Below the pieces are notes generated by a model. That model was given only the letters and a program-made list of their open reading frames with translations, ran no database searches and was not told the DNA's origin. Below are positions 25,063 through 61,961 of a DNA stretch of 64,000 nt, one piece after another. The first letter of the stretch is position 1. Every line of letters starts with the position of its first letter. The translations under genes and the position numbers were made by a program. Source of the DNA: Lama guanicoe (taxonomy: Eukaryota); the NCBI GenBank assembly GCA_013239625.1, contig MU053304.1, positions 1,240,001 to 1,304,000 of the forward strand, given 5' to 3'.

Positions 25063-25169
25063 TCGACTTCCTAGGGGTTCTGGAGAGAGGAAAGAGGTGC
25101 CGAGAGAAAGGAGGGTAAATGCAAATTTAAAGTAAAATTTCACCTGCTAAAATTAGAATTAAAAAACAA

Positions 25170-25710
25170 GCCCGGTCGTAGGGTCTTTCCTTTCATTCTG
25201 CTGTGCGCTCCTGACGAAAGCGGACGCCCGCCGAAGACTGCAGCAGGTTCCTGGAAGACCCCGACATCAGGTCGCTGACGGGGGAGGTCTTGCGGGGCGG
25301 GGTTGCCGGGTGGGTTAGGGAGAGGACGGGTGCCTAGGGCTGCAGAGGGCGGAGGGAAGCCCTTGAAGGGGCTCAGGGCAGCGGCTGTTTACCAGCTGGG
25401 TGGAAAGCGTGTTTGATAAGGTGCATTGCTTTGGTGGGAAGTCTTGGCTGACGTCTGCCCTGCAAGGGGGAGGGCGCTCTGGGAGAGCGCGCGGCTGGCT
25501 CCGCGCCGGCTGAGGTTGTGCCGGCAGCTGCCTTCCGGTAAGCGCGCTCGGGCGGCGCGCACGCAGGAGAGCGAAGCCGGGGCTGGCGGGGAGGCCCCCG
25601 CCCGGCTCCCAGCCGGTGTTTGCTGGGAGCAAACCGCCGGTGCCGGACCCCTTATTCCCCAAGCGCCGCTTCAGTGGCTCCTCCTGGGACTCTTGCAGGG
25701 ACCGCATCAG
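25170..25710 (+). promoter_or_regulatory. CpG-island promoter and probable non-coding exon 1 of the plus-strand HSR gene
   Basis: Dense CpGs, GC box (ggggcgggg), TGACGT half-CRE, IRF-like ctttcctttc, strong donor CCG|GTAAGC at 25537/25538; link to the gene is inferred. Confidence 0.6.
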
Positions 25711-37427: not shown

Positions 37428-37581
37428 GATGCTTCCAGTTCAGAAGAAGGAGATTTTCCATGAGATCCTTTTGAATCACTTTAAGGAAAATAAGGTGGAG
37501 ATAACAAGTGCAATAACAAAGCCATTTCCCTTCCTTGAGAGCCTCAGAGATAGCTCCTTCATCACTGAAAAAATCTATAGT
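37428..37581 (+). CDS. SP100/SP140-family paralog, HSR/CARD exon 1 (ATG at 37429): MLPVQKKEIFHEILLNHFKENKVEITSAITKPFPFLESLRDSSFITEKIYS
   Basis: Acceptor tttttccttAG, donor GTGAGT; matches the HSR motif F.ENKVEI..AI..PFPFL..LRD...I. Confidence 0.92.
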
Positions 37582-38487
37582 GTGAGTAAAGTTTATTATA
37601 TTTCCCCATGGTAACCCATCCCCATGCTGATTTGTATTTGACATCCTAAATTCAAAATTTAATGTATCACTAACTGGCTGAGAGTCCTTTTATGCTTTTC
37701 TTGGGGAGACCCTTTTAAGTTAGTTAATCACCCTGTAAGCTCAAGGGTGACAGAGAAAGCACATATCACTTCTATTCCGATCAAAGCCCTTCTCTTCTGT
37801 GACACATGTTAGAGTGGGGATGGGTGGTAATGGTGATATGGCTGGATTGCAACATATGCTTTGTAAGATGTATAGCAATTTATACAACATAACAAAATTA
37901 AACTAAATTAAAATAATAAAATTGGGGCAGTATTTCATTATAATACCCATTTATGGTAAATGAAATCCCCAGGGAATTTGTGCTAGTATAAATCAAATTT
38001 CTGCCTTTTTTTTGTCTCCTCCAGAGTGTTTAAACTTTGTTAGGTGGTTCTGGAGTCTTGGAATTCCAGTAAATTAGATCAGTGGACCCTCCTGGGGAAA
38101 CAGAGAAGGAAACCATCTCCGCACTGCGTGATTGTGCAGGTCCCTGTGTGCTCCTCGTGGCAGGGGCAGGACCATCTCCCTACATCCTGGAGCCCTTTCA
38201 GGGCTTCTCACACCTGGAGGGTAGGCAGTGGTTGCTGGGAAATCCACAGAATTGCTATAAGCTTCATTCTTGAAACAGCCTAGGCAGGATGAAAATTCAA
38301 AAAGTCAAGAGGAAGGGTTATTTTAAGCAGCTGATCAAGTATTTAAGAAGTTCTAAAATATTGCATGAAAAATACTAGTCTATCTACATTGAGCAAGTAG
38401 AATTAGTGCTCTGTGCAGTTCCTTTCTAGATGTCTCTTTAACTCTGAAACTATTATTTTATATTTTTTCCATTGCACCTTTTAAAAG

Positions 38488-38656
38488 GATTCTCAAGAAG
38501 CCTGTAGAAACTTGGTTCCTGTAGGGAAAGTGATATATCATATTCTCTGTCACCTTGAGAAGACGTTTGATAAATCACTTCTACGAGCCCTGTTCAGCAG
38601 GGTCCATCTGAAGGAGTATCCTGACTTAATTCCAATTCATAGAAGCTTTGAAAATG
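38488..38656 (+). CDS. HSR/CARD exon 2: [56 protein letters not shown]
   Basis: AG/GT bounded, 169 nt, phase 0 to 1; resembles human SP100 [27 protein letters not shown]...EYPDLIHIYKGFEN. Confidence 0.93.
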
Positions 38657-40950
38657 GTAATCAATTCTCTCTTTTCCCTTCTGGGGTCTAGGTCATTCAT
38701 TTCATTCATTCATTCACTAAGTCACTCATTTAGCAGCTATTCATGAGATGCTCCCCCATCCTAGGCCCCGTGCTAAGCAGTGTGATGTAAGTAACTGTGA
38801 GCGGTGACATTCTTCAGAGGCAACCAGGCTGTCTTTAATTTCCACAGAAAACTTTATCAAAGGCAAAAAATTTAACTCTCCAAATAAAGAATGAAGAAGT
38901 CACAATAGCCCATCAGCCCAGAAGGAGGGCCAGCATGTGGAAAGGTGTGGGCGTGAGGAAGGGATTCAAGCAAAGCTGAGCTGATTCTGCATATGATGGT
39001 TAGAGGCAGACTGTGCAGTTTCTGACATCCTAAACTGAGGAACTGGAGTATAATTTTTATAGTAACAGGGAAGTAACACCAGTTTCTTAAGCAAGGGGAA
39101 AAAAAATCAAAAGAAGCTAATATAAAGTATGGAGTTTTTTTTTTCAGTCATTTTATATTGGTTACTTAAGAAAAAATTGAAGTATAGTTGATTTACAATG
39201 TGTTAGTTCCTGGTGTACAGCATTTTGATTCAGTTGTACACACACATATGTTTATTTTCATATTCTTTATCATTAAAGGTTATTACAAGATACTGAAAAT
39301 AGTTCTCTGTGCTGAACAGTAAGACCTTGTTGTTTTTCTGTTTTATGTATAGTAGTTAGTATCTGCAGATCCCAAACAAGTATGGAGTGTATTGATTTGT
39401 GAAAATAGTAAATTGATTAAAATTAGAAGAATCTAATTTCTATATTGATACGTGAGTTAGAGACAGGAATAGAGTAAATCAAAAATCAAACATCTGGGCA
39501 CACATTTTAAGTCACCAATTTTTAAAAGATTTATTGATATATAATTCACATACATTGTCAATATATTTGTACCAGGATGTCCCCAGGTCATAGGAGCAGA
39601 GGGAATAGCAGTGACCTTTACTGTCCACATCCCAGGGGCTCTGGTCCTCTTCACCGATTGCAGGAACTCCCCCTCCCTGGGCCCAGGGTCCACAGCACAA
39701 GTGTTAGTTTCCGGGGCTCCTGGTTCTGGTGCTCCTGTGACTCCCACCTACATTTGCTGTCACCCACCTGCCCCTGGGAGAGGTCTCTGCCACCACCCCC
39801 GGGACCCCGCTGTCCATGGGAGCTGTGGGTCAGTGACTAAAGCCAAGAGGCTGGGGACTGTGGTCCATGGCATGGCATCACTCCACTTGCTCAGTCCCCA
39901 CCTTCATCCCATTCACAGAAGCCCCCAACCCCTTGCTGGAACACCTGCACACAGGCTTCCTTCTCTGAGCTTTGGGCCCTTTGTTCTCTTCATCTCTTCC
40001 ACCTGATTTTTCTGGGATTTGAAGCTGTGTCTTGGGGAAGACAAAGCCCCTGCGGTCCAACAGTCCTGTCCATTCTTGCTCCTGGCAGGCATTGTCCTAG
40101 GAGATGCTTCTGCCATCAGTCCTGGGACAGCCTGGGCTCCGTTGCCTCCCATGGTGTCTCTTCTCTCAACTTTTGGCAGGGACTCAGCCCTTAGGCTTCC
40201 TGGTTTATTTTCTTCCTCTTACATTTGCTAGGTCATCTATAAGCAGGCGCCCTGGGCTGGTCTTCTGACCTTTCCTTGTTGGCAGCCTCCAGGTTTCCTG
40301 GTATGGGGGTCATGGGGACGTCCTGTAGTGCTGTAATCCCACTCCCTGCCTGCAGCTTCAGAATGTTCTTCCTGTGCTGATGGGGTCTGGGTCACCCGTG
40401 GGAGGTGTCTAGCTCCTTCCCTGCCTTCTGGTTGTCTCTTTTGAAAGTGCTCATCCTCCCTGACCCAGTTCAGCCCAACTTTCCTCTCATCTAGTCCCAT
40501 CTTTAAAGTTCTTGGGCTTTCTCTCTTACACTCATGGATCTCTTTAGGATCCTAGCCCTTCTGCAGAGAAAATCCCTGTTTCTTCCCTAAGGTTTGTACA
40601 GTTCACAGAGACATTCCATTATAGAATTTATACTGAGATAAGCTTTCACTCCTCTCTGATCATCTTGTTGAGTAATGAATTACTGTTTATGACCTTTCCT
40701 CTGCTCCACCATCCTTAAAAATCAGGAGGCTCATCACCTCTTTTTCAGTGGGTTTTTTTCTCTTTGCTGTCCCAGGGAAAGGCACAAGCAATACCAAGTC
40801 AGGAGCCACTGAGATTTGGAGTGATCCAGGGGCCAGAAGTCCCCCACTGCAGGACATGGGTTTGTGGGTGGTCCAGATGTGTAATTATGAAGTAATGTCC
40901 CTGAGCACTTACTTGCTTACAGACTCTAATGAATTTTTCCCTCTGTTCAG

Positions 40951-41019
40951 TGATCCAAGACACATATTTTTCACAGGAAAGTGATAGAGAGACATTGAAA
41001 TTGCCCAGCTCTGAACAAG
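40951..41019 (+). CDS. Post-HSR exon: VIQDTYFSQESDRETLKLPSSEQ
   Basis: ttcAG / GTAATT, 69 nt, phase 1-1; resembles SP100 VIHDKLPLQESEEEE...SLEQ. Confidence 0.82.
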
Positions 41020-42435
41020 GTAATTATGATGAGATACAAACTTATTTTTTTGGTTACTAAGAGAAAAAGGAGACAAAGGAACTGAGCTCTAGAAGGGAAA
41101 CCATGATTCTGGAAGAAGAAAATCTGAAGATCAAGGGCCAGGTAGTTAAGTGTCACTTTGTATCAATTCCAAAATGACCCAATTCCATGTAGAACCCAAC
41201 ATGTTAGCAAGAGGTGGCAATGAGAGACTTTCTGCCCAATAACCTAGAAAGTGGAATAAGAATGTAAATGTGAATTATAAGTTTCCATAGGAGACCTTCA
41301 GCATAAAGGTGTGAAGGGCTAAGGACTATGGGCCCAAGGTCAACATCAAGAGAGACCATTGATGATGGCAAAAGAAGGGACTGATTTAAATGTGAGGGAT
41401 GTTGTTGAAGAGTGGATTATTTAAGGAGAAAGGAAATCACAGAGAAGAGAGGAAGTGGAGGAGACATGGAGAAGAGGATGTGGGTATTTGAGAAGGAGAG
41501 GAAGAAGGAGGGCAAATGAGGGACAGGGAGAAAGAGACAAAGGACATAATAAAAAACAACCACATTATCTACAGCTCCCTTGAATGAACATTTATTCTGG
41601 CAGCTGTGGATTTAGGCTCATGGCTGCCATTGGAGGGTATTATCACTTATATGCCCATTTTGCAGATAAGAAAACTGAGCTCTAGAGAGATCATGTAATT
41701 AGTTGGCCTGGGGTCAAATGGATCCAGGCATTCTGAACGCACTGCCTGCATTCTTTCTTTTAAATGGAAGTAAAATTCACATAACATAAAGATAACTATT
41801 TTAAGTGTACAATTTAGTCACATTTAGCACATTCACAGTGTTATGCAACTATCACCTCTATCTGGTTCCAAAACATCTTGATCTCCTGAAAAGGAAACCT
41901 TATATCTATTAAGCTGTCACTTCCCATTCCCTTCTTTCCACTGTCAGGAGACACTGATATGACTATTTTTAGTGCATCTTCTAGTTTCTGTGGGTTGAGT
42001 GGAGAAAATCTCAGACAAAGAGAATGTGATTGGAGCCTGACATATAGGTGGGGACATGTAGAGGAAGAGATCTGGGAAGGGAAATAGAGATACAAGGACT
42101 GAGTTGGAGAGCATCGCTGGAGGGAAGAAAGAGACAGAAACATGAAGCGACTGGAGAAGCCAGTGGAGACCCAGATGCAGGTATGTCTTCCTAGGATAGA
42201 AGCACCAATACCTAGAGATTGGATCCTGGTAAAAAATTGAGAAGCAGAGCGGAAGAGAATGAGGTCTAACAAGATGGAAAGAGGCAGAGCAGAGCTTGAT
42301 TGGTTTTCCTTGGGGTTCTGGGAGCAGGTGTGTTTCTTCACAAGGAAGTTTTCATCCTCAGAGCTCACTATGACCACACCTTAGTCTATTTCCTGGCCCT
42401 TGACTCTGGTCTCTCCTTTCTTTTTTTCTTTTCAG

Positions 42436-42515
42436 TGCCCACTGAACCCAAAGCTCTTGGAATGAAAAAGAGAGATCAGGAGAGTTTCACAGCCTTTCGC
42501 TAAATGGTAGACAAG
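42436..42515 (+). CDS. 80-nt exon giving VPTEPKALGMKKRDQESFTAFR* (TAA 42501-42503); probable last coding exon of a ~152-aa HSR-only protein
   Basis: Strong polypyrimidine acceptor ttttcAG; donor CAAG|gtaattatgat identical to that of the previous exon; length not a multiple of 3. Confidence 0.65.
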
Positions 42516-43374
42516 GTAATTATGATTAAATCCCATATTTTAAACTACCGGTTACCTGATTAGGTTACTAGGTGGAGGGAGGAAAGTCTGTACATGGGAA
42601 CCCAGCCTCTGACTGCTTTTTACGGCTTGAGGGAGGCAAGGAGGGTGAGGCCTTGGGTATAGATTTTAAAGAGACATTCACTGCATGAACCTGAGAGTAA
42701 GTGTCTCTTCAATTTGATGACTTAGGCCTCTTGCTTGCCTCATCCTAGCCCTGCCTTGGAGGCAAGGATGAACTCAATGGAGGAAGATGCCCTGAGTGGA
42801 GAACATAAGAACAAGTTTAGAAAAAACCCCAATAATGAGTTGTAAGAGCGGGCCCAGCTTTACCTAAATAGATGAGATCCAGACTTCTCCAGGGTGGTGG
42901 AGGCTTGGCAGGGAGATAATTTTTATCCTACTTGCCAAAAATTGACACAGGAATAGGCAAATAATGTGTGTGACTGTCAGATTGGCAAGTGAGAGAGATC
43001 AGTGTAGAAGACCTTTAGAAGGGAGGAGGTAGGGGCAGGAGGCTCTAGAGATACGGTCAAAGCCACAAGAAGAGATCTTTAGTAATGGAGGGGTGCAACC
43101 TTTGAGATAAGGGTGACAGCAATTGGAAGAGAAGAGGCAGACAGAGGGTAGAAATACCAAGCAAGAAAAAGTGGAGGTGAGACACAGAAACCATGAAGAC
43201 AAAGATTATGGTTTTATTGCCTTGTAGACATCACCCAGTTTGGCCTCTAATTTAGGGAACTTGTTTCAGTCAGCATGCCTTTTCTGGCTAACTTTGTAAG
43301 CCTATGTTCCTTGAATTCTGAGTTGGTGGTTCACATGCACTGCAATTAATAAGGAAATTTATTCATTTATTCTG

Positions 43375-43458
43375 AGAATATCAGTGACAACAATTTGAAA
43401 ACAAATGTTGGAAAAGAGAACCAGGGAGCTTCTAGCTCACCACCAAAAACTGGGTCAA
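43375..43458 (+). pseudogene. Decayed SP100-like linker exon (NISDNNLKTNVGKENQGASSSPPKTGS)
   Basis: Open 84-nt frame resembling SP100/SP140 'E.QEASSS...GS' repeat exons; acceptor reads TG, donor reads GCAAGG. Confidence 0.55.
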
Positions 43459-45035
43459 GCAAGGCAAACAAGTCTTGGGTTTTAGGATTCCAGGAGTCTG
43501 AATTCAGAACTACTTTTTCCTTTTTCATTCTGAGTACCAAACACATGAAAATGAATTAGTGATACTAAAATTCCGTTCTCTGCATTTCCTTTACTACATG
43601 AACAGAGACATAAAATCATTATAAATTCATATTTAACAGTATGAGCACTATTGATTGAAAAGAAGTGCTCCTATTTTGATGTGGTAGAAATATGCTCATA
43701 AAATGAGATCTCTTTAGTTACCTGTTGTCATGCCTAATAACTTCAGTCTTGAATTCATACAGTAATTTTCACCCATTCTTATCCACTTCCTTATCTTTTA
43801 TGGAGCACAGAAGGCTAAGTAGTCCTTTCTTGGGTAAATAATATTGTTATCATTTGGTCAAAAACCTGAGAAAGCTCAGAAATCCTGCTGTCTCATAACG
43901 TTCAAATAGAAAGGATTCAAATCAACTAGTGGCAAAATCAGCTTTTAGGTTTTGATGGATGTCCTCCAGAGAGTTGTCCTTTTTCAATCAGTTTAAGTTT
44001 ACCAGGGGTGAACAAGCTTGTGGTCCAGCAGTGAGATTTATTGGCTGGTTACAAGACAGTGGGACACACACAAGAAGACTGACCTATGGGACACTTTGCC
44101 AAACCAAGATATAGATACAGTTGTTGTAGGTTTTGGGAGAGTTTAATGAAACTTAAAACTTACTTAAACTCTTTGGGAGTTTAAATAAAATTTACAGGAA
44201 GCAGTGGTCTGATAGGTTCAAAGTAAGCCAGAACTCTGTGTAAAGAGGTCAGGATCAGGTCTGGATTGTGAAATGGACTCAGGGTTCTGTTACGAGGAAA
44301 CTACAAAATTAAGGAAATGTTCACTATTGTATTCAGAAATCCCAATTTGCAGCTGGATTGGAAATCAATAACCTATCTCTTTATCAAAATAACTCAAACC
44401 CTCTAACTTTTATTCTTGATGATATCAGTTCAAACAGCAAGTTTTTTGACAGTGTGAGAATTTTGACAACAAAGTTCCTCAGTGAGTAAGAAAGCGGAAG
44501 TCATTCAAAGAAGGATTATTGTGATAATTTAACAGCTGTAGCAAGTTCTTAGGAGAAGTACTGTTTCCTATTATTTTTTGCAATTGGTTTTCACTGTATC
44601 TGTTATTCCACTCTCATGAATGGCAGGGTAGAGTTTTGCTTTCTTAGACTAAGCTAATTTCTACTTTCTCAATAACATTAAGTATGTGGTGATTTATCAA
44701 AGGAGTCTGCCAAAAAAAAAAAAGTCTTATTTTAACTTTACAGCAGTCATGAGATGTCTTATTTTATATGTGAGGAAGCCAAAGCCCATAAATGTTTAAG
44801 GTTCTCCCCACTTCTTGGCTCATCATGCCAAGGAAGAGCTAGAATTATCATCCTTGATTTCTAGAACTCAGTCCCATAGCTGTCTGTTTTCTTTAGAAAG
44901 AGGGGAGGGAGAGAGAGAGAGAGAGAGAGAAGTGATAACCAACACATTTTAATCCTGACTGTGAATTGTGTGAAATGTCAAGATTTACCATTTTTCAGTG
45001 TACAGATTATTGTTTTTTGTCTCCTTGCTTTATAG

Positions 45036-45089
45036 ATCCCGTGGATATTGGAAACTCTTCTACTTGGGACAGACATACTAGGAATAAAG
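45036..45089 (+). pseudogene. Decayed exon (DPVDIGNSSTWDRHTRNK)
   Basis: Acceptor ttatAG intact; resembles SP140 DTVDIANNSTLGK; donor reads ATATGT instead of GTATGT. Confidence 0.65.
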
Positions 45090-45789
45090 ATATGTGCAAA
45101 TCTAGAATTCTTGGTATACAAATGAATCTTTAAAAAAATCTATGCAACATTAAATCCAATTGTTTACTACATCATTCAAAATAAAATAATAAATTTTAAA
45201 GAGTCCAGATTAATCATTTTTATTAGTTAAGGTAGGTTATCTGTTATATGAAATAGAACCTAAACATTTGTAATTGCTAAAAGAAGTTATTTCTTGCTTG
45301 CAGGAACAATCCACAGTGTTCCAGACCATGAGTGGGAGAAGGAGTATTGAGAAGAGGATAGGGTGCTCTGCCCCATGTAGTCATTCAGAGACCAAGTGTA
45401 CTAGAGACTATGCCATCTTCAACACTTGTCTTCCAAAATTACCCCGGGTGAGAGACAGAGTAAAAGCCAGAAGAGATGTATAGAGACAGGTAGGAAGAGT
45501 AAGAAGTGGAATGACAGTGAAGGGTCAGCAAAGTTGAAAGTGAGACAAAGCAGAACTCCCCACTGTGGGTAAAATTTTCTGTCTCTGGAGATAGTGCTGA
45601 AGCAACAGTAACCTCTGTAGGTGAGGTGCACGTGAGAGTCATACCAGGGTACTTTCAGGCAGGCATAGTCCTACCTGAGTTGCTGGATCTTCCCTGGTCA
45701 TCCCTCACCTTCTTGTTATGTGATTTTCTTTTGTGTTGGCTCCTTGGGCACACATTAAGTCCTCTAAGTGATTTCATTTCTCTGTGCAG

Positions 45790-45864
45790 AGGTTAATAGA
45801 GATGACACTCTGGAAGTCAGACAAGCCCCAGAAGCCTCTAGCTTTGCACTGAGAAGTGGTCCAG
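45790..45864 (+). pseudogene. SP100-like linker exon (EVNRDDTLEVRQAPEASSFALRSGP); splice sites intact but downstream of the stop
   Basis: tgcAG / GTAAGG, 75 nt; resembles SP100 EEAPAEASSGALRS. Confidence 0.65.
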
Positions 45865-45924
45865 GTAAGGAAGATGCAAAATGTCCATCAATACAAGCTT
45901 GAAATCAGAGCTCCTGTCTCCTGA

Positions 45925-49357: not shown

Positions 49358-49531
49358 TCACAGGCATGATCTCTTGTCGCTTCTGGAGTCTCTGAAGGGG
49401 GACCTAGAAAGAGGGTAGGGCTCAAACTGAGTACTGTTTGTGCTTATTTCCTGGATGGCAAAAATGTCTGTGAAATCATTCTCAGATCTGGCCTCTAGAT
49501 GAAGTCCCAGCCTGATGAATTTCTCCTTGTC
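49358..49531 (-). pseudogene. SP100: SP100-like terminal bromodomain exon (DKEKFIRLGLHLEARSENDFTDIFAIQEIS...*), unreachable in frame
   Basis: tttttcAG acceptor; resembles human SP100C EDKFTRLGIQVQDIFEKNFRNIFAIQETS. Confidence 0.8.
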
Positions 49532-50695
49532 CTGAAAAAGCAAAGACAAAAACAATAATAGCTATTGCCAGTGGGCTTAGGTTGCCAACGAGCTTGACTC
49601 CCAATGTTCCAGATAACCTGGAGTTTCATTTTAGACTACCCCAAATGCTAAGCGAAAATTAATCCAGTTGAGAGTAGCTTATGTTCTTTGATTGCTGGAT
49701 CATTTTTCTTCATCTTGAATACAGAGGAGCAAAAATAGTACTATACTGCATTTTAATTCTTCATGAGAAATTTATTGATTAATTTTTTAAAATCTAGTTA
49801 TTTGATTTTTGAACACAGCACATATTCCTTGTAGTACTCTGATTGTGCAGAAATGTCTAAGGCAAATTCATGGTGTTTTCTTTTATCCTTCATTCCCATC
49901 CCTTAAGGTAGTCCTTGTTAACTTTATTATACACCACAAAGAAATTCAAATGTAAAGAAATTCAAGATTTTGAAATATGAGAAATGTGATTTGGTATCTT
50001 TCTTTAGAGATGAGACACACAAGTTGCCTTTAAAATGTGCTTCTAGCAGATGAGAGAACTGGCCCCACTTCTCCACGAGCACCGAGGCCGTAAACCTTCT
50101 GCTTGTAAGAACTCTACCATGCTCTGAATCCGGAGTGCAGTTCTAGAACCACTGGAAATAGGAAGATGCCCAGGTGTGTGTGTGGGTCCTGTCCACACAT
50201 TCCTGAGGGCCTGGATGTCAGAGGGCAGGAGCACGAACTGCACAGGAACATACTCTGTATCTCAACACCCAGTCTCCCCAGAATGGTCCCTGAGTCTGGG
50301 CTGCGTGGGGTCAGGAGCCCAGGCCCAGGGCAGGGACTTTTGAGGTACCCACAGAACTGTCCAGATCCAGTGGAAAAAAAAAAGAAGAAAGAAAGAACAT
50401 CACTTCCATTTCCTGTGGAAGAGACTAGGTCTGCAGTTCACTGTTCTCTGTGGGCAAACCGTCTATCTAGAAGGAGTAAACTCTGAGGTCCTCGGGCAAC
50501 GTTTTCAGTGATACCTCTGGCCTCCTGTTATTATCTGCCCCACCATAGCCCAGAGGGCTTTTAAAATACTGCCAGAATTTTTACTTTGTGGACTTGCCAG
50601 ATGATGAGGGAAACTGCAACTTTTACTTGCTTACAAGAAGGTGAAAGACAAAGCAACTTAATCGAGAGAAAATAGAAGCAGGGAGAACCACTTAC

Positions 50696-50838
50696 ACTGG
50701 AATACTGTCTGTAGTTCTGGAAGACGAGACACATGTCCTGCACAAATCCCTCCACCTGGCAGTAGGTATATCTTCCTCAACTTTTTCTTGAGTTTGTTTA
50801 ACCACATGGGCTTCTTCGGCCCGAGATGCCTCTCTACT
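50696..50838 (-). pseudogene. SP100: SP100-like bromodomain exon with two frameshifts
   Basis: SREASR / PKKPMWLNKLKKKL / TYCQVEGFVQDMCLVFQNYRQYS lie in different frames; 143 nt between intact AG and GTAAGT. Confidence 0.85.
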
Positions 50839-50904
50839 CTGTTGACAAAGTGCCAAAGGGCAGGCTATTAGAGGGTTCCAAGTCTACCTTCTGTAGACTC
50901 CCAC

Positions 50905-51275
50905 TGTTATGGACTGAGCACTTATGTTCCTCAAATTCATATGGTGAAATCGTCACCCCTACTGTGATGGTATCAGGAAGTGGGACCTTTTGGAGATAAT
51001 TAGGTCATGAGGGTGGAGCCCTCATGGATGAGATTAGTGCCCTTGTAAGAGACTTCAGAGAACTCCCTCCCTCCCTTGTGAGGATAAAAAGAAAAGACAG
51101 CTCTCTGCAACCTGGAAGAGAGCCCTCACTAGGACCTGATCCTGCTAGCACCCTGATCTTGGACTTCCAGCCCCTAGAACTGTGAGCAATAAATTCCTGT
51201 TGTTTAAGCCACCCAGACTATTGCAATTTGTTATAGCAGCTGAGCTTTGAAGGGCTGACTGAGCTGACTAAGACA
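50905..51275 (+). mobile_element. MLT1A-like MaLR LTR
   Basis: 'tgttatggactga...aggtcatgagggtggagccctcatggatgagattagtgcccttgtaaga...gactaagaca'. Confidence 0.9.
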
Positions 51276-51372
51276 TTCACCAACAAGACAAAGATAATGG
51301 CAACTTGTACCCTCTGGACTCATAACACAAATTTGACAGATGCCAGTTTTGGGTTTTGTTGCTCTTACTTAT

Positions 51373-51446
51373 ATAATGTGGTTCTGAGGCAAAAAAGGGG
51401 TTTTTTTTGGAGAGCAATATAACTTCAAGAGGAGAAACTCACATTT
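51373..51446 (-). pseudogene. SP100: SP100-like bromodomain exon (KCEFLLLKLYCSPK / FFASEPHY) with a +2 frameshift and lost donor
   Basis: An A8C4 run shifts the frame; the ancestral donor reads ATAAGT; using the next GT (51367-51368) ends the frame in TAA. Confidence 0.85.
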
Positions 51447-51718
51447 CTGCAAAAGAGAGGAAATTTTAAGTGAAAAGCAGCTTGGAGAGAATGAGCCTTA
51501 TGTATGCTCAGATAGATGCACAACTCCCAAACTTGCAGATTGTGAAACAGACACCAAGTTTCTGTGGCGTAGAAATGTTGGTGTCAGGTCATGTGATCAG
51601 AGCACAGCAAGGGACAGCAGTTTGCCTTGGGCACCTTTCCTCCTGCCCCCTGCAAGGTGGTGCTGCTTCTCTTGTGTAAACAGAAAGGAGGAGGCTTCAG
51701 GTTTGCATTTCAACTCAC

Positions 51719-51839
51719 CAGCTGCTCCTCAGGCAGCATCTTCCTCTTCAGGACCTCAGATTCCTGATGACATGGTTGGCTTTCTGAGTACCTTTCCTGA
51801 AGAGCCTTTATCTTGCAGAAGTTGCAACTCCATGGGTTC
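51719..51839 (-). pseudogene. SP100: SP100-like PHD C-terminal/linker exon (NPWSCNFCKIKALQERYSESQPCHQESEVLKRKMLPEEQL); open but downstream of stops
   Basis: cAG / GTGAGT, 121 nt, phase 2 to 0; closest to SP100 [40 protein letters not shown]. Confidence 0.88.
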
Positions 51840-52439
51840 CTGAGAGGTTGGACATAAGGTCAGCAAAGGGAGGTTCTCTGTGAATCAACCTTTGTGTCTA
51901 TAGCCACTGGAGTGCTCTGCTCAGATTGTAGTTTCCAGCTGTACCCAACTTCTCTCTGACATCCCTCAGCACTAGAGCCTCATTTGGGCTCAAATGCCAA
52001 AGACAACCCTCCCATCAATAGCAGTAGAAGGCTGACAGTCTAAGTGAGGTGTCACAGTGGGTAAAGACTCTCATTCACCTCAAAACTTAGGGTTCCCATC
52101 TGAGCCACTGTGATTTTGGTAATGACTCCTGCCTGCTAGAATCGCGGGTTCCAACCTTGGAAATTAGTACCTTAAGCACTGGAGTCTTGGTCCTCAAAGA
52201 GTCATCAGATCACATTAAAAATCAGAAGACCAGCTCTTTCTCTCAACTTAGCTGAATAAGCACAGGGCATAAGCCACAGGCATCCTTTCCTCTGGCCCTG
52301 CCAACTCTACATCTAGAATCTGTGCTGCAGAAACTTCTTGAAAAGGAAATCTACCAACAGAGTGCCAGATATCTTCCATTTGCTCCTAGATTCATTCTCT
52401 CCTCTCCTCCCCCAGGCTCTGTACTGCGGACCTCTTGAC

Positions 52440-52965
52440 AGTTAGATGGATACAATGATCCACCCTAGAGATATCATTTAGCCTCTCTCCTTGGCCACCC
52501 CAGTGGTTGCTCAGGGGGCCCATTACAAAGTGCCCATGGTGCAGGGCTGGAGACTACACATAAGCTCAACGACTTGTCTTCTGCCTCTGCAGACTGTCTA
52601 ACTGCAGAAATTTATGCTGAATCCTTGAGTGTGCACATTCTCTGGTTGCTACATGGGAGCAGGTGAATTATACTAGATTCCTCCCATTATGGAGAGCCAT
52701 GCTGTATTCTATAGGGACAGACAGAATCCTGGTAGAGATCATCCTTCCTGGCTAGAGCGAGTCTGCTCACACCACCACTTATAGAGTGCCTTGTCAATCT
52801 ATGTGTTATCTCACATATCATCACCTCTGACCAAAGATATATCTTACAGCCAAGAAAATGCAGCAGTGGACTAATACCTACAGAATTCAAGGGTCTTATG
52901 TACCCCGTGATTCAGGGTCAACTAACTTGATAGACTGCTGTGATTGCCTTCTGAAAGCTCATCAC
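52440..52965 (+). mobile_element. ERVL internal (integrase) fossil
   Basis: Degenerate integrase motifs (ITSDQRYILTAKKMQQW-like, equivalent to SDQGTHFTA.EV.QW). Confidence 0.6.
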
Positions 52966-53230
52966 AGCCCCAGCTTTGTCAGCTTTGGTGTGTTCCCATA
53001 GCAGGTGGTGTCTGCTTTAAACCAGCAGCTAATGTAGGGAGTCATCACCTCATCAAAGTGCATGGGTCTGGGAACCAAGTGAGGGAGGTGGGGGGGGTCA
53101 CTCCTTTGTTTATTATACCTAAAAACAACTTGAAGACTTTTCTCCTCATTAATCTACTGCTGCTAGCTTTGTTAAACAGCTCTGTCCCTATTTCTGGATC
53201 CCCATACTTAAGGACTCTGCTTCTCAATCA

Positions 53231-53446
<216 letters not shown>

Positions 53447-53604
53447 CTAGAAAAAGAGATAACACAGACATCACTGGGATCAGTGAGACCCTGGAAGGTT
53501 GACACACTGGGACTCTAGAACACATGGCTTTTGCTTGTACCAAGGTGACACTTGTAAATTTATCTCCTCAAACTATTAAGGAACAACACTGAATGGAGAT
53601 TTCA

Positions 53605-55111
53605 TTTATTTTTATTTTTAAAAGTTAAAAATTAATTTATTTCTTATTGATGAATAGTCAATTACAATGTGTCAATCCGGTGTACAGCATAATGTCCCAG
53701 TAATACATATACATACATATATTCATTTTCATACTCTTTTCATTAAAGTTTATTACAAGATATTGAATATAGTCCCCTGTCCTATACAGAAGAAATTTGT
53801 TTTTTACCTATTTTTATACATAGTGGTTAATATTTGCAAATCTCAAACTCCCAAATTTATCCCTTTCCACCCTCTTTCCCCTCGGTAACCATAAGATTGT
53901 TTACTATGTCTGAGAATCTGTTTCTGTTTTGTAGATGAGTTCATTCATGTCTTCTTTTTTCCTTTTTTAGATTCCATGTATGAATGATATCATACAGTAT
54001 ATTTCTTTCTCTTTTTGGCTTAACTCATGTAGAAAATGACATTCTCCAGATCTATCCATGTTGTAGCAAATAACATTCTTTAACTCTTTTTTGGCTGAGT
54101 AGTATTCCATTGTATAAATATACCACATCTTCTTTATCCAGTCATCTGCTGATGAACATTTAGGCTGTTTCCGTGTCTTGGCTATCGTATATAGTGTTGC
54201 TATGAACATTCAGGTGCATGTATCTTTTCGAATTAGAGTTCCCTCTGGATATATGCCCAAGAATGCGACTGCTGGATCATACAGAAACTTTATTTTTAGT
54301 TTTTTGAGGAATCTCCATACTGTTTTCCATAATGGCTACACCAAACTGTATTCCTACCAACAGAGTAGGAGGGTTCCCATTTCTCCATAGCCTCTCCAGA
54401 ATTTATCATTTGTGGAAGGGATAGCCTGGGATTTCAAAATTTGTAGATACTGACAGGCATATTCAGAATAGATAGACAAGATTGTACTCTATAGCACAGG
54501 GAAATATATACAAGATCTTGTGGTAGCTCACAGCGAAAAAACATGTGACAATGAATATATGTATATTCATGTGTAACTGAAAAATTGTGCTGTACACTGG
54601 AATTTGACACAACATTGTAAAATGACTGTAACTCAATAAAAAATTGTTAAAAAAATGATAGCCATTCTGACTGGTGTGAGGTGATACCTCATTGTATTTT
54701 TGATTTGCATTTCTCTGATAATCGAGCATTTTTTCAAATGCCTATTGGCCATTTGTATGTCTTCATTGGAGAATTGCTTGTTCAGGTCTTCTGCCCATTT
54801 TTGGATTGGTTTTTTGTTGTTGTTGTTGTTATCAAGTTGTATGAGCTGTTTATATATTCTAGAAATTAAACCTTTGCCAGTTGTATCATTTGCAAATATT
54901 TTCTCCCATTCCATAGATTGTCATTTTGTTTTGCTTATGGTTTCCTTTGCTGTGAGAGTGGGCATCCTTGTTTTGTTCCAGATTTTAGTGGGAAAGCTTT
55001 CAGCTTTTCACCATTGAGTATTATGCTGGCTGTGGGTTTGTCATAAATAGTTTTTACTGTATTGAGATATGTTCCCTCTGTACCCACTTTGGTAAGAGTT
55101 TTTATCATAAG
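53605..55111 (-). mobile_element. L1 3' portion with TSD, containing an oppositely oriented L1 3' end at about 54416-54655
   Basis: TSD tgaatggagatttca (53590-53604) and tgagtggagatttca (55112-55126). Confidence 0.88.
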
Positions 55112-57459
55112 TGAGTGGAGATTTCAGAAGACATTCTGGTCTGCAGTGATGTTCAGGAGGAAGTGGCTGTGTGTTACACCTTTAAAGTTTTCTTTATGAA
55201 GCCAGAGATTCTGACACAGGAAGGCTAACAACAACAACAAAAAAGGAATAAATTAAAGATAGTCTGAGAAATTTATTATTCTGTAGGCAAAACCTGGTTC
55301 AGGAATACAATGTCTTATCTAGTTGTCTACATTGCATCATCTATATTGACTCATTGAAGAGTGATTACTGAGAATTTAATATGAGAGAATAAACTTCTGA
55401 GATACCATTGCATCCCATTTTCTTGTCCATAAGTTCTCTGTGAGTTGAAGGACCTGAGGAGGAGTTCCTGGACAATGGATTCCATGCCTGGAGTGCCCCT
55501 GGGCCTGTGACAGAGCCTCTGGGTTGGAAAGACCATGGGCACAGGTGACCAGATGAATGCCAGGGAGGACAGAGCTCTTTGGCTCTGGGAGCCTGAAATA
55601 GCCTGTCCCCATGATGTAGCTTAGCACATAAGATGTGGAGGTGCCATCTCTCAAAGTCCAGAGAGAATGGGAGCAGCAGCCACTGGAGTTGAAGGCCAAG
55701 GCCCTAACTTCATTTTCTGAGCCTGTGGAAGACCTGGTTCTTTGTCTTATATAAGGAAGATGACAGGATTCACAAAATTGACTGATGCTGGATTTTTCAC
55801 CAATCTCATTATGTGGGACTTTTAGCCAGATTTAATTTCATTTAGTGAACTTAAAAATTTGACAGTGTTTTTGTGTCTAATTATTGTCGAATAAAAAACT
55901 CAAATTAGAAAAATAGAATTTATTGACCAAAATAAGAATTGGTCAAGGAATGAGCCCACTGGTGGGCAAAGAAAATCACATTTTCCCTCTTCTTTTGTGA
56001 TAATCTCTGTGGCAGTAACATGTGAATCCCTGTATACTACAATTTCTTTGTATGAGGGTGATGTGCCTATGCTGGAAAAATGCCCAGAGGATGGGCACCC
56101 GGCTTCTCTCCTGGGCTACCTGAGCAGAAAGAGAACCGTATGGGGGGGGGAACATTTCGTCCAATGGGTAGCAGCTCTGCATCTAGATGAATATATTCTT
56201 TCTACACAATAGGATGGAAGAAGGAATTCACATCCTTGTGTGACGATCTAGGCACAAAATGATGCATAGACTTAGGGGCTGGCCCATCCAGTGATGGGTA
56301 GCTGGGACTCTGGTGGGTGGTGAGGAAGTGGGGAGGTGGCAGGGAGTGCCACTCTACCTCTTCTTTCTAGAAACACACTTAAAGCTTTATTTGATGACAC
56401 TCCACTCTCTTGGATTGTTTTTCTAACACCCTGCCTCTTTCTTTTTAGGTTCCTCACTTGGAATGTTGGAATTTTGGAGGGCTCTGTCTTATGTCCCCTT
56501 CTATGTCCCTTTACTCTCCTAGATGACCACAACTACTCCCATCACCACACTTACCACACTTTGTCCCTAGGCTTTAAGACCTGTGTCTCTAGTCTTCTTT
56601 CAAGTCTCCAAGCACCCAAATTGTACTTTCCATCATCTCCAATTAGATGTCTTTCATCATGAATAAAGTTCATCTTGCCTCAAACCACATTCCTCATCTT
56701 CCTGTCTTGAATTGGCTCCTCTTTTAGTGCTCCACCATCTCACTAAGCACCCCACCATTCCACCCGGGAACCTGAAAGTGAACATGGAGTCCTCCCTTTT
56801 CCCGTCCCAGATATCCAATTATTACCAGTCCTGCTGATTCCAATTTTTAAATATCTAATCTCATTCTCAGTGATTCTGTGAGATCCACTGCTACAAGAAT
56901 GCAGGGCCTTTAATTATAAAACAATATTATTAGCCAAAGAAAAACGGTCTGCTCTTTGGGTTCCAAATCGTAACAGTCAGAATATCATTTCTGAGCCCAG
57001 TGAGCTGAGGTGAATTGCAACATACCTCAATTTGTAAATTCTTTTCATGTATAAATTCAATATAAAAAGAAGAGACACAAAAGCTGCACATAGGAGGAAA
57101 TTCTAGGCTGCAAGATGTATCTTGTCCATGTGCTCCCTTTCAATAGGAAAACCTAAGGAATGGCCTGCCAGGGACATCCTTGGGGACACCCCCTAGTGGG
57201 CTTGAGTTGCCCTGGTATGGGGCCATGTAACTGTTTTTCTGTTTTGTCACAACAGATGAGACTCATGGATGCTGACCACTATTTTTAGGTTACTAGGTCA
57301 GAGTTCCTGAACCATCAGTCTATAAGTACACTGCGAGTGGGCCTGAGGAAGAAAGAATGATGCATGCAAATTCACTGTTTGAAGCTCCATTGTCTAGAAA
57401 GCCTGCAAACTTGGTGCATGTCTCTTTAATCTTTTTAGCAAGAAATTTGCCCTTTCATT

Positions 57460-57940
57460 CAACAGTGGTTCTACACCTGTTGTACAGTAGAATCACCTGG
57501 TGAGCTTTAAGAAAATTCTGATGCCTAGGACCCCATCCTCAGAGATCTTGACTCAGTTAGTCTGGGTTGAGTGTGTGTTTTAAAGCAGTGTGTTTTAAAT
57601 GTTCCCCAGATGGTTTTAATGTGCAGTCATTAGTTGAGACCTTTGGCTTCTTAAAGTAGTGGTCTCTGGACCAGCAAAAGCAGCATTACCTGGAACTTTT
57701 TTGAAATGCGAATTCTTGGGCTCCATCCCTCACTTACTGAATCAGAAGCCCATGAGATTCTGATGGACACCACAGATTGTACAGCGTGGGTCTACAGTGA
57801 CCCACACATTTTGTCATGCATTAAAACCACCAGGGGAGTTTTGGAAAATCTTGGTCCTCAGACAGCATCTTAGAACAATAACATCAGAACCTCTGAGGGT
57901 AAGTAATTGCAATATGCAGCCAAGAGTGGGAGCTCAAGGT
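57460..57940. mobile_element. Cluster of MER5-type hAT fossils
   Basis: 'agaatcacctggtgagcttt', 'ggaccagcaaaagcagcattacctgg', 'acttactgaatcagaa'. Confidence 0.7.
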
Positions 57941-58438
57941 CTAGAGGAACTTCTCCCAGCAAGGGCTGGGAGTTATAGGCAGTCATTATCACCTACAAGC
58001 TCTGTCACAAGAAAGGTTATGAAGAGGGGGAGAACATCCTATCTGGAAGAGTTGCCTTTTCATCTTCATAGAGGGCTTGGCCATGTTGGAAGAAAAACCC
58101 TCTGTGTCCACCTCAGTCATCAAAAAAGCTACGCAGACCTCAGAGATGAGAGCTATTCCACTACTCAAGGGTCCCATCTCCAGCAGAGGAACAGAAGCAG
58201 TGTGAATGTATCTAGAGCTTGCTGGGCAATGCATTTGCTAGAAAACCAGAGGGCATGGAAACCCTTATATTTCCCTCTCTGTTGGTGCCATGTATTAGTC
58301 CAGCTACACAACATTATGTAGTGAGAGGCACCTCCTGCAGTTGTGCAAAAAGTGACTGCCTGAAATGTCCTTATTACAATGAAAGCAATCAAAGTGATAT
58401 TTAGCTTAGAGAGAGGCAGTAGTTCAAGTGATAATTAC

Positions 58439-58477
58439 CTTTTATCTTTTTATTGACGGATCTGGTAAAAATCCTCT
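58439..58477 (-). CDS. SP100: SP100-like post-SAND exon RGFLPDPSIKR* with in-frame TAA (58442-58444)
   Basis: ttttcAG / GTAATT, 39 nt; equivalent to human NKFLPEPPSTRKK. Confidence 0.85.
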
Positions 58478-58977
58478 CTGAAAGAGAAATGAGATTCATG
58501 CCATTATGAGTTCTTGTTTCTACTTTGTGAACTTGGTAATTTCAGCTGCCTTCCAGATGTGTCCCATTGTCAATGCAAATTCAAGGTGTCTTCATGGAAA
58601 ATAACCTCCCTCTCCAAATCTGTAACATGCTGCTCTCTGTTATCCAGACTCAGCTTTCAAACCTGAACCTCCTCTCTTGCTCTCGTTATAAAGTTTTTCC
58701 AAGTTTTCCTTCACAACCTCTTCTATACCCACCACTTCCTTTCTATTCCCACAGTACCCCTCTAGCTTTTATCTTTATACCTTGCATACTACAGCTACTT
58801 CATTGGCACACATCTGGTGAATGACTGACCAGGTGTCAGGCCCTATCAGTGGCTTTGGGCACACAAAGATACCTATGCCTTTGGGGAGACAAGTGGGAAA
58901 AGCTGGCACATAACAGGTAAGGATGATAAAGTGTAAACTGTGGTCTCATAGAGTATTTTGGGATCTGGAGATGGGTG

Positions 58978-59452
58978 TGTATAGAAGGCTAAATAATGCC
59001 CCTCCTTGCAAAAATGCCTAGTTCCCACACCCATGAATGCGTTAACTTTCATGGTGAAAGGGGCTTTACAGATATAATTAAATGAAGGAGCTTGAAATGG
59101 GGCGATGATTCTGATTATCTTGACGGGGCCAATGTAACCACAAGGGTTAAGAGTGGGGCAGGAGGCTCAGAGTGAGTAGTAGGACACATGATGACAGAAC
59201 AAGAGGTTGGAGTGTTGCAGAGACGGGGCCATGAGCCACGGGATGCAGGCTGCTTCTAGAAGCTGGAAGAGGCAAGGGACAGATTCTCCCTGGAAGGCTC
59301 CAAAAGGAACCAGCCCTGCTGACACCCCGACTTGAGTCCAGTGAAACTGATTTCAGACTTCTGGTCTCCAGAACTGTAAGATAATAGACTTATATTGTTT
59401 TAAGGCATTAAGTTTGTGGAAAATTGTTATAACAACTATAGGAAACAAATTA
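58978..59452 (+). mobile_element. MLT1D-like MaLR LTR
   Basis: 'catggtgaaaggggctttacagatataattaa...agaagctggaagaggcaagggacagattctccc...ccagaactgtaagataata'. Confidence 0.9.
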
Positions 59453-60711: not shown

Positions 60712-60854
60712 CTCAATCAAGTATTTTAGGGGCCATCCACCGCAGCGCACACTCATCTTCCAGTTCTTGGATGCTGCGCGTTTTCCTTCAACTTCAAATT
60801 CCCTGAGGGTGAACCGCCTTCCATCCTTACTCTGTACGCACTTCTCGGAGACTC
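60712..60854 (-). CDS. SP100: SAND domain exon: GVSEKCVQSKDGRRFTLREFEVEGKRAASKNWKMSVRCGGWPLKYLIE
   Basis: cAG / GTATTC, 143 nt, intact KNWK DNA-binding motif. Confidence 0.93.
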
Positions 60855-61880: not shown

Positions 61881-61961
61881 CAAAAAGTTGTTGACACCCT
61901 ATACAGTATCTTATTCACTTGGGAGTTTTCCAGCTGAAGTATAGATGACTGTGAAACCCAC

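What the first reader, a model, noticed from the sequence alone, without database searches (positions are those of the whole stretch)
37428..45864. HSR/CARD-only SP100-family gene: candidate decoy regulator of speckled proteins
Seen: four plus-strand exons with canonical splice sites splice to a 152-aa ORF (MLPVQKKEIF...FKENKVEITSAITKPFPFLESLRD...CRNLVPV...[14 protein letters not shown]...QESFTAFR*). The HSR exons have no lesions, whereas downstream exons are decayed. No SAND, PHD or bromo exons occur before the convergent SP100 3' end. The supplied ORF track misses most of this gene. Established: the HSR/CARD domain mediates oligomerisation and PML-body targeting of SP100-family proteins, and CARD-only proteins (CARD16/17/18) act as decoys in the caspase-1 system. 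From recall, mouse has an HSR-containing gene (A630001G21Rik) antisense and downstream of Sp100, which may be the ortholog. Inference: an old, poorly characterised fifth family member that titrates SP100/SP110/SP140 assembly.
Basis: partly seen in the sequence, partly recalled or inferred. Interest (0 to 1): 0.8.

Follow-up and report, generated by a model that had tools for sequence, protein, structure and literature searches.

The report
CARD-only speckled-protein gene beside SP100
This is a real, already annotated alpaca gene that encodes only the assembly (HSR/CARD) domain of the SP100 family; it is the counterpart of the unstudied mouse gene A630001G21Rik, and may tune how SP100-type proteins clump in the nucleus.

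Summary
Four plus-strand exons (37429-37581, 38488-38656, 40951-41019, 42436-42503) with AG/GT borders splice to a 152-aa ORF. That ORF is identical to an existing alpaca RefSeq model named 'nuclear body protein SP140-like protein isoform X2'.

The first two exons are an HSR domain (Pfam). They fold as a six-helix CARD that matches the solved SP100 CARD filament subunit 9tnz.

No SAND, PHD or bromodomain exon lies on the plus strand. SP100's own such exons run convergently on the minus strand from 62067 to 49409.

A tree of 62 HSR domains gives four clades: SP100, SP140, SP110 and this short 'HSR-only' clade (97/94 support). The fourth clade holds sloth, manatee, bats, carnivores, whales, primates and rodents, including mouse LOC319997/A630001G21Rik. 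Position between SP100 and CAB39 is shared with mouse.

Most orthologues add a SUMO-interaction-like tail. The alpaca copy has lost it.

The 'decoy' function is untested. It is made plausible by the 2026 result that the SP110 CARD alone dissolves SP100 CARD filaments. I obtained no RNA or complex evidence.

The parts
25159..25270 (+). Putative first exon, non-coding in alpaca, followed by GT at 25271. It lies in a short CpG-rich patch.
   Evidence: The N-terminal extensions of the sperm-whale and Pteropus orthologue models match here (E 4.8e-4 and 1e-3). Sequence read. Region 25000-25600 has GC 0.60 and CpG o/e 0.8. Its frame does not continue into the HSR frame in the alpaca (my reading).
37428..37581 (+). 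Exon with the start codon (ATG at 37429) and the first half of the HSR/CARD. Acceptor AG at 37426-37427, donor GTGAGT.
   Evidence: Pfam HSR E 1.5e-16; sequence; splice check.
38488..38656 (+). Second half of the HSR/CARD. AG acceptor, GTAAT donor, ends in phase 1.
   Evidence: Pfam HSR E 3.9e-21. 96% identical to Camelus ferus and 67-88% to the other 42 orthologue hits.
40951..41019 (+). Linker exon (VIQDTYFSQESDRETLKLPSSEQ), conserved in orthologues and similar to the SP100 consensus after its HSR.
   Evidence: tblastn to 20+ orthologues; tail-HMM E 5.5e-5; SP100 consensus.
42436..42515 (+). Exon 4. The ORF ends at TAA 42501-42503, four codons before a donor-like GTAATT at 42516. ATTAAA at 42525.
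   Evidence: Homologous to the 'VP.ESK.L.MKERKSE..' exon of seal and bat orthologues.
45036..45133 (+). Alternative terminal exon used by the Camelus models. It is also open in the window (162-aa product). ATTAAA/AATAAA at 45149-45188.
   Evidence: tblastn to P0001: 97% over 32 aa. Splice and ORF check. PolyA signals.
45771..45875 (+). Weak remnant of the SIM/acidic exon of orthologues (..EVNRDDTLEVRQAPEASSFALRSGPG..). It lacks the VISSE core and lies downstream of both stops.
   Evidence: tblastn E 0.011-0.034 to Myotis and manatee proteins. Tail-HMM E 0.12, second best of 1348 frames, on the right strand and in the right order.
49409..62067 (-). 3' part of the convergent SP100 gene. SAND exons at 62067-61960 and 60855-60712; PHD exons at 53443-53345 and 51859-51719; bromodomain-end exons at 50767-50708 and 49522-49409.
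   Evidence: Pfam SAND hit. tblastn with SP100-clade proteins, 98% to Camelus SP100 in the SAND exon. SP100's HSR exons lie at contig 1338221-1339608 (-), outside the window.

Best explanation
This is a real single-copy gene. It is the camelid orthologue of mouse A630001G21Rik (LOC319997) and a fourth ancient lineage of the speckled-protein cluster beside SP100, SP140 and SP110. It lies between CAB39 and the 3' end of SP100.

It encodes an HSR/CARD oligomerisation domain and no chromatin-reader domain. In most placentals the CARD is followed by a disordered linker and a SIM-like 'IIVISSE(D/S)S' plus acidic tail. In the alpaca a stop in exon 4 leaves the CARD plus about 45 residues.

Most likely mechanism (inferred, not shown): the CARD joins or caps CARD assemblies of its neighbours, SP100 above all. 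This would change the size or persistence of SP100/PML-body oligomers without adding any DNA- or histone-reading activity. That is the activity shown for the isolated SP110 CARD on SP100 filaments.

Shown here: the gene structure, the domain, the fold, orthology, synteny and conservation. Inferred: expression in the alpaca, nuclear-body targeting, hetero-oligomerisation and the direction of the effect.
For: Structure and identity with a RefSeq model.

Composition. 43 of 43 hits and the A630001G21-type hits carry PF03172 only. All 73 rows of the clade in the 201-row FastTree are 114-455 aa, against up to 1609 aa in the SP100 clade.

Tree of 62 HSR domains: HSR-only clade 97/94 with 30 rows; SP100 99/91; SP140 100/97; SP110 100/100. 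Inside the clade, camelids, carnivores, primates and muroids each group together, as expected for orthologues.

Names and synteny. Names 'RIKEN cDNA A630001G21 gene' and 'LOC319997 [Mus musculus]'. Alpaca order is CAB39 coding exons (contig 1129771-1151476, minus), this gene, then SP100 (minus). Mouse order is Sp100, A630001G21Rik, LOC631657, Cab39 (table passage of PMC3420870).

Constraint. In 6 of 8 species pairs the CARD's tree distance is smaller than that of SP100's CARD. In 7 of 8 pairs its identity is higher.

Fold. AlphaFold2 gives six helices with pLDDT 66-86 (10-residue block means) over residues 11-110. The top PDB match is 9tnz, the SP100 CARD filament: TM 0.91 by target, rmsd 1.3 A, 59% identity. 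It is the only PDB sequence hit, E 7.6e-51.

Transcripts in relatives. Contigs of 1.1-1.6 kb from sequencing-run assemblies encode whole multi-exon orthologues of 201-312 aa (P0010, P0013, P0234, P0238, P0243, P0248). This is only possible for spliced RNA (inference).

Precedent (PMC13649554, abstract and sections 11-12 read). The SP110 CARD alone rescues. The SP100 CARD alone is toxic and forms filaments. SP110 CARD at 1:10 breaks those filaments.

Mouse context. The gene is listed among differentially expressed genes of stimulated macrophages next to Sp100, Sp110, Sp140, Pml and Daxx (passage). [quoted passage not shown]
Against: No expression evidence for the alpaca was obtained.

The alpaca and camel forms lack the SIM-like tail kept by rodents, bats, primates, sea cows and others. 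The camelid copy may therefore be partly disabled.

Alpaca versus camel shows 5 of 109 CARD differences, against 3 of 99 for SP100. These are small numbers, but they do not point to tighter constraint in camelids.

No canonical ISRE lies near the putative first exon (0 strict matches in the window; none of the 15 core matches lies at 23500-25400).

[quoted passage not shown] CARD-CARD pairing in this family is therefore selective and cannot be assumed.

dN/dS could not be computed, because no orthologous DNA was at hand.
Confidence: 0.5

Rival explanations
1. In camelids the gene is a decaying remnant. The ancestral CARD+SIM protein was cut short by the exon-4 stop, the tail exons are eroding, and the still-open CARD exons have no function of their own. 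Any transcript is noise or is degraded.
For: The stop lies four codons before a conserved donor-like site where orthologues read on. The SIM exon survives only as a weak remnant without the VISSE core, and the rest of the orthologue tail, C-terminal end included, is undetected. An L1 fragment lies directly behind the remnant. Alpaca and Camelus models use different last exons. There are slightly more CARD changes between alpaca and camel than in SP100.
Against: The 107-codon CARD is open with intact AG/GT borders in the alpaca, and models exist for C. ferus and C. dromedarius. My rough estimate, not a computation: two lineages separated for more than 15 million years would probably have picked up a stop or frameshift if evolution were neutral. 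Short tail-less models also occur in dog, hedgehog, sloth, chinchilla and degu, so the CARD alone may be a normal product.
Confidence: 0.2
2. The protein is a building block rather than an inhibitor. Its CARD forms its own filaments or co-polymerises with SP100 or SP140 and so seeds or enlarges nuclear bodies. In species with the SIM-like tail it would bridge to SUMOylated PML.
For: 59% identity and a near-identical fold to the filament-forming SP100 CARD. A SIM-like IIVISSE motif and acidic tract are conserved in rodents, bats, primates and sea cows, as in the SP100 consensus. The SP100 CARD alone forms filaments.
Against: In the tree the clade sits on the SP110 side of the central branch (95/82, unrooted), and the SP110 CARD does not form filaments. 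The alpaca form lacks the SIM.
Confidence: 0.2
3. The locus matters mainly as RNA. Convergent transcription towards the SP100 3' end regulates SP100 isoform choice or polyadenylation, and the short ORF is incidental.
For: The gene is convergent with SP100, and its last candidate exons (42.5-45.9 kb) lie 3.5-7 kb from SP100's last coding exon at 49409-49522.
Against: CARD protein sequence is conserved in all four placental superorders, at or above the level of SP100's CARD. That is not expected for an incidental ORF.
Confidence: 0.05

Closest known systems
Mouse A630001G21Rik (LOC319997; UniProt Q3UTB2 as cited in PMC5098112) and its 'SP140-like' / 'Sp-100-like' gene models in other mammals
   Same: Same clade in the HSR tree, same position between SP100 and CAB39, and HSR as the only Pfam domain.
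   Different: Mouse, rat and hamster proteins (184-315 aa) keep a 'DE(I/V)IVISSESSECSDED' SIM-like/acidic tail. The alpaca protein stops before it.
SP100 (short isoform SP100A type) and its CARD filament, PDB 9tnz
   Same: Homologous CARD (E 7.6e-51, TM 0.91). The exon after the HSR is similar, and orthologues carry a similar SIM-like motif. It is the neighbouring gene.
   Different: Separate clade, 50-60% identity to the alpaca's own SP100 CARD, far shorter, and no isoform with SAND/PHD/bromo or HMG parts.
SP110 CARD as a breaker of SP100 CARD oligomers (Aird et al. 2026, PMC13649554)
   Same: A CARD of the same family that acts on SP100 through the CARD alone. The HSR-only clade groups with SP110 in the unrooted tree (95/82).
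   Different: SP110 is a full-length reader protein. Whether the present CARD binds SP100 at all is untested, and other SP CARDs did not substitute for SP110's.
CARD-only proteins of the caspase-1 system (CARD16, CARD17, CARD18); recalled, not checked in a paper here
   Same: A single CARD without an effector domain, encoded next to the gene family whose CARD assemblies it could regulate.
   Different: Those are recent primate duplicates of CASP1 (recalled). This gene is an old lineage found in all four placental superorders, and in most species it has a SIM-like tail.

Membership tests
Speckled-protein (SP100/SP110/SP140) family | N-terminal HSR/CARD domain (Pfam PF03172) | tested here: met
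   E 1.5e-16 and 3.9e-21 for the two exons, both above the 24.9-bit cut-off. The fold matches the SP100 CARD 9tnz.
Speckled-protein (SP100/SP110/SP140) family | Location in the SP gene cluster | tested here: met
   On the same contig as the SP100, SP140 and SP110 HSR and SAND exons, within 150 kb.
Speckled-protein (SP100/SP110/SP140) family | SAND domain | tested here: not met
   No plus-strand SAND exon. The only SAND exons in the window belong to SP100 on the minus strand. Orthologues carry PF03172 only.
Speckled-protein (SP100/SP110/SP140) family | PHD finger and bromodomain | tested here: not met
   tblastn with 9 long SP100-clade proteins finds such exons only on the minus strand at 53443-49409.
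A630001G21Rik orthologous group | Membership of the HSR-only clade in a domain tree | tested here: met
   30-row clade with support 97/94 that holds the window's protein, Mus musculus LOC319997, and the 'RIKEN cDNA A630001G21' proteins of three rodents.
A630001G21Rik orthologous group | Position between SP100 and CAB39, convergent with SP100 | tested here: met
   for the alpaca; the table passage in PMC3420870 for mouse gene order. The strand of the mouse gene was not checked.
A630001G21Rik orthologous group | SIM-like (I/V)IVISSE motif with an acidic tail | tested here: not met
   Absent from the 152-aa and 162-aa products. The remnant exon at 45771-45875 lacks the motif.
CARD-only regulators (works-like comparison) | Binds and caps or disperses the CARD oligomer of a full-length relative | not testable with these tools
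It needs co-IP or filament assays.

The most novel reading that the evidence does not exclude
Placental mammals carry a fifth, CARD-only speckled protein. It would act as an endogenous, interferon-responsive breaker or cap of SP100-family CARD filaments, in parallel to SP110. It has gone unnoticed because the human-centred literature counts four members.

No Homo, Pan or Gorilla protein model of this clade appeared in three searches, while orangutan, gibbon, capuchin and Old World monkey models did. African apes may therefore have lost it, which would make PML-body and interferon-toxicity control differ between humans and the usual model animals.
Probability: 0.2. Interest if true: 0.7.

Novelty: new member of a known kind. 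Interest (0 to 1): 0.45.

Why it matters
The speckled proteins control interferon responses, PML bodies and resistance to tuberculosis and herpesviruses. The papers read here speak of four members.

This clade is a further old member that keeps only the assembly domain, and mice have it. After the 2026 demonstration that one SP CARD can dissolve another's filaments, its role can be tested directly with the same assays. It may also confound mouse genetics of the Sp100/Sp110/Sp140 region.

As a gene model it is not new. The exact protein and its orthologues are in public annotation under misleading names such as 'SP140-like' and 'Sp-100-like'.

Tried and rejected
RNA evidence. The run search listed no holder on record as RNA. 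I therefore make no statement on expression in the alpaca.

Alpaca isoform X1. Its 22-aa N-terminal extension was not found in the window. It may lie in the assembly gap at 35886-36878.

AIRE as an outgroup. The own-genome exons matched the HSR profile too weakly (E 3.3e-4 and 0.38), so the tree is unrooted.

Elephant protein P0255. I first took it for a member, but it fell in the SP100 clade. The partial rat protein P0254 was left out of the tree.

ISRE search near the 5' exon: none.

Window 1-4000 as a CpG-island promoter: rejected. GC is 0.60 but CpG o/e is only 0.31.

Interface residues of the SP100 filament are given only in figures, so interface conservation was not scored.

Literature. 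Searches for A630001G21Rik, Sp140l1/Sp140l2, speckled-protein evolution, SP100 CARD filaments, and CARD-only/decoy found no paper that describes this clade or its function. 'Sp140l2' is a mouse gene name in the amplified region; I could not tell whether it is the same gene.

Earlier notes of this scan: nothing relevant.

One paper look-up failed on a too-short term and was not repeated. PMC11661405 is held only as a 2.6-kb stub.
Full report
WHERE THE WINDOW LIES. The window is contig C593:1240001-1304000 of a 2.05-Gb assembly. The proteins it encodes are identical or nearly identical to Vicugna pacos RefSeq models.

THE OBSERVATION. The plus strand holds four exons:
- 37428/37429-37581, with ATG at 37429, a pyrimidine tract and AG just upstream, and donor GTGAGT;
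- 38488-38656;
- 40951-41019;
- 42436-42503.

Internal borders are AG...GT. Spliced in a script they give 459 nt, which is 152 aa and a single terminal stop. The product is identical to P0046 = XP_072817932.1, 'nuclear body protein SP140-like protein isoform X2 [Vicugna pacos]'. It has one difference from an older model (P0047), and it equals the last 152 residues of isoform X1 (P0045, 174 aa).

Pfam places an HSR domain (PF03172) across exons 1 and 2: E 1.5e-16 for profile positions 2-44 and E 3.9e-21 for positions 42-98. The exon-4 frame matches nothing.

SURROUNDINGS. A search of the whole assembly with the HSR profile finds four HSR exon pairs on this contig: this gene, a pair 60 kb further on the minus strand, one at 1.414 Mb (minus) and one at 1.428 Mb (plus). 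It also finds a weak AIRE-like pair on another contig and a 744-bp duplicate contig. By identity to named proteins these are SP100 (97% to Camelus bactrianus SP100), SP140 and SP110.

The SAND profile hits the window only at 60712-60858 on the minus strand. tblastn with nine long SP100-clade proteins lays SP100's exons on the minus strand only:
- SAND at 62067-61960 and 60855-60712;
- PHD at 53443-53345 and 51859-51719;
- bromodomain end at 50767-50708 and 49522-49409.

SP100 therefore ends convergently a few kilobases beyond this gene, and no reader-domain exon belongs to the plus-strand gene. CAB39 coding exons lie on the minus strand at 1129771-1151476 of the same contig. The order is CAB39, this gene, SP100, SP140, SP110.

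THE 5' END. The N-terminal extensions of the sperm-whale and Pteropus models both match 25159-25264 (E 4.8e-4 and 1e-3). This stretch ends in CAG|GT at 25270/25271 and sits in a short patch with GC 0.60 and CpG o/e 0.8. I take it as the first exon. In the alpaca its frame does not run into the HSR frame, so it would be 5' UTR. An assembly gap (35886-36878) lies between it and the ATG exon. The 22-aa extension of alpaca isoform X1 was not found in the window.

THE 3' END AND THE 'DECAYED' EXONS. Orthologues from seals, bats, primates, sea cows and rodents continue after the third exon as follows:
- an exon of the type 'VP.ESK.L.MKERKSE...';
- a variable stretch;
- a SIM-like '(I/V)I(V/I)ISSE(D/S)S' motif with an acidic run;
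- in many Laurasiatheria and primates, a '..SEFRAP(A/V)S' end.

In the window, exon 4 is the homologue of the first of these. It reads PTEPKALGMKKRDQESFTAFR*MVDK and is then followed by GTAATT. So a stop sits four codons before what looks like the old donor.

A profile of 53 orthologue tails, run over 1348 open frames of 38.7-64 kb on both strands, finds exon 3 (E 5.5e-5). The next best hit is 45768-45899 on the plus strand (E 0.12), and everything else is noise. tblastn gives the same place (45771-45875, E 0.011-0.034), where the orthologues' 'VISSES..' is replaced by 'EVNRDD..'. An L1 ORF2 fragment starts at 45925. The rest of the orthologue tail, including the C-terminal end, was not detected.

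The Camelus models (162 aa) skip exon 4 and end in another exon. In the window that exon is at 45036-45133, has an AG acceptor and is open, giving a 162-aa product with 7 differences from C. ferus. Both candidate ends are followed by polyA signals within 16-55 nt. Either way the camelid protein is a CARD plus 45-55 residues. 'Downstream exons decayed' is thus partly right: one stop, one eroded exon, and the rest not found.

WHAT THE GENE IS. The exon-2 peptide found 43 proteins of 114-455 aa, all with HSR as the only Pfam domain. They come from camels, whales, bats, hedgehog, carnivores, sea cows, tarsier, Old World monkeys and hystricognath rodents, and are named 'SP140-like' or 'Sp-100-like'.

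A profile search of 1.84 billion representatives found 319 proteins. Named members of the same group include marmots, lemurs, dingo, mole-rat, orangutan, two-toed sloth and a cricetid. That cricetid protein's nearest relatives are named 'RIKEN cDNA A630001G21 gene' (Cricetulus, Peromyscus, Mus spicilegus) and 'uncharacterized protein LOC319997 [Mus musculus]'.

A FastTree of 201 HSR domains, then an IQ-TREE of 62 chosen rows over 110 columns, give four clades:
- SP140, support 100/97;
- SP100, support 99/91;
- SP110, support 100/100;
- an HSR-only clade, support 97/94, with 30 rows.

For the 62-row tree I left out the partial rat protein P0254. I used no AIRE outgroup, so the tree is unrooted.

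The HSR-only clade holds the window's protein, the mouse, rat and hamster proteins, sloth, manatee and orangutan. Inside it, camelids, carnivores, primates and muroids each group together. The central branch puts the HSR-only clade with SP110 (95/82). An elephant protein that I had provisionally labelled as a member fell in SP100. In the 201-row tree all 73 rows of the clade are 455 aa or shorter, while the SP100 clade reaches 1609 aa.

In the mouse the gene order is Sp110, LOC434484, Sp100, A630001G21Rik, LOC631657, Cab39 (table passage of PMC3420870). This matches the alpaca order.

CONSTRAINT. No orthologous DNA was available, so dN/dS was not computed. As a proxy I compared the CARD of this gene with that of SP100 in the same eight species pairs. 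The tree distance is smaller for this gene in 6 of 8 pairs, for example camelid-whale 0.24 against 0.38. Identity is higher in 7 of 8 pairs, for example 92/109 against 72/99. The exceptions are Pteropus-sloth (distance) and alpaca-camel (5/109 against 3/99 differences). The domain is at least as constrained as SP100's across orders. For the camelid branch alone the numbers are too small to tell.

FOLD. AlphaFold2 with the 19-row orthologue alignment gives six helices (4-28, 32-41, 47-58, 63-77, 80-89, 96-113). Block pLDDT is 66-86 over residues 11-110, and the tail is disordered (mean 65.7, pTM 0.50; only one of five models was good). Foldseek's only significant PDB match is 9tnz_A, the SP100 CARD filament (E 2.7e-6, TM 0.91 by target, rmsd 1.3 A, 59% identity). 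Weak CARD8, MAVS, RIG-I and Apaf-1 CARD matches follow. The profile's only PDB sequence hit is the same entry (E 7.6e-51).

HOW IT MAY WORK. I read the abstract and sections 11-12 of Aird et al. 2026 (PMC13649554). They report:
- the SP100 CARD alone forms micrometre-long double-stranded filaments and is sufficient for interferon-driven toxicity;
- the SP110 CARD alone is sufficient to protect;
- SP110 and SP100 bind CARD to CARD;
- SP110 CARD at 1:10 breaks SP100 filaments;
- other SP CARDs could not replace SP110's.

A natural protein that is little more than such a CARD, encoded next to SP100, is therefore a reasonable candidate modulator of these assemblies. Whether it caps, co-polymerises or does nothing is open.

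Mouse passages show A630001G21Rik in a differentially-expressed-gene list next to Sp100, Sp110, Sp140, Pml and Daxx (PMC9627492). [quoted passage not shown] I read passages only. No canonical ISRE was found near the putative first exon.

Spliced transcripts exist in relatives. Contigs of 1.1-1.6 kb from run assemblies encode whole multi-exon orthologues. That these contigs are cDNA is my inference.

WHAT WAS NOT OBTAINED. 

KNOWN OR NEW. The gene model is public, and the mouse gene has a name and a UniProt entry (Q3UTB2, as cited in PMC5098112). Five literature searches found no paper that treats it as a family member or tests it. The reviews and the 2026 paper speak of four speckled proteins (listing).

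No Homo, Pan or Gorilla model of the clade appeared, or among the names. Pongo, Symphalangus, Sapajus and cercopithecid models did appear. This is a lead, not a finding.

VERDICT. The 'decoy' mechanism is plausible but untested. I rate it a new (undescribed) member of a known family, of moderate interest.

Noticed in passing
window 42921-42986 (+): A 22-residue frame is 82% identical to an internal segment of Hipposideros larvatus isoform 1 (P0014, aa 173-194; E 1.6e-8), but it carries an in-frame stop in the alpaca. It may be a cassette exon shared by bat and camelid and disabled here, or an exonised conserved element.
   Followed up: no
window 39680-39827 (+): This stretch resembles residues 191-237 of the walrus model P0020 (E 8e-7). 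It is probably intron sequence retained in that model, or a shared repeat.
   Followed up: no
window 35886-36878: A 993-N assembly gap lies between the putative first exon and the ATG exon. The N-terminal extension of alpaca isoform X1 (P0045) was not found anywhere in the window and may lie in the gap.
   Followed up: partly
window 45925-46556 (+) and beyond: A LINE-1 ORF2-like open frame lies directly downstream of the eroded SIM-type exon. It may have displaced the original last exon.
   Followed up: no
window 1-4000: The region is GC-rich (0.60) but CpG-poor (o/e 0.31), so it is not a CpG island. Its nature was not determined. CAB39 coding exons are 89 kb away on the minus strand.
   Followed up: partly
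proteins P0090 (Pongo), P0080 (Lemur), P0087 (Symphalangus): The orangutan and ring-tailed lemur models both lack the 13 residues 'DSQEAC..PVQ' at the start of the second CARD exon, perhaps through an internal acceptor. The gibbon model has a long insertion between the two CARD exons. No Homo, Pan or Gorilla model was seen in any search.
   Followed up: partly
G000:C49501:460-591 (L006): A 744-bp contig duplicates the first HSR exon of SP100 with the same 85-aa open frame. It is probably an unplaced allelic copy.
   Followed up: no
HSR tree: The unrooted tree splits {SP100, SP140} from {SP110, HSR-only} with support 95/82. If that holds with a root, the CARD-only gene and SP110 would be sister lineages.
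   Followed up: no
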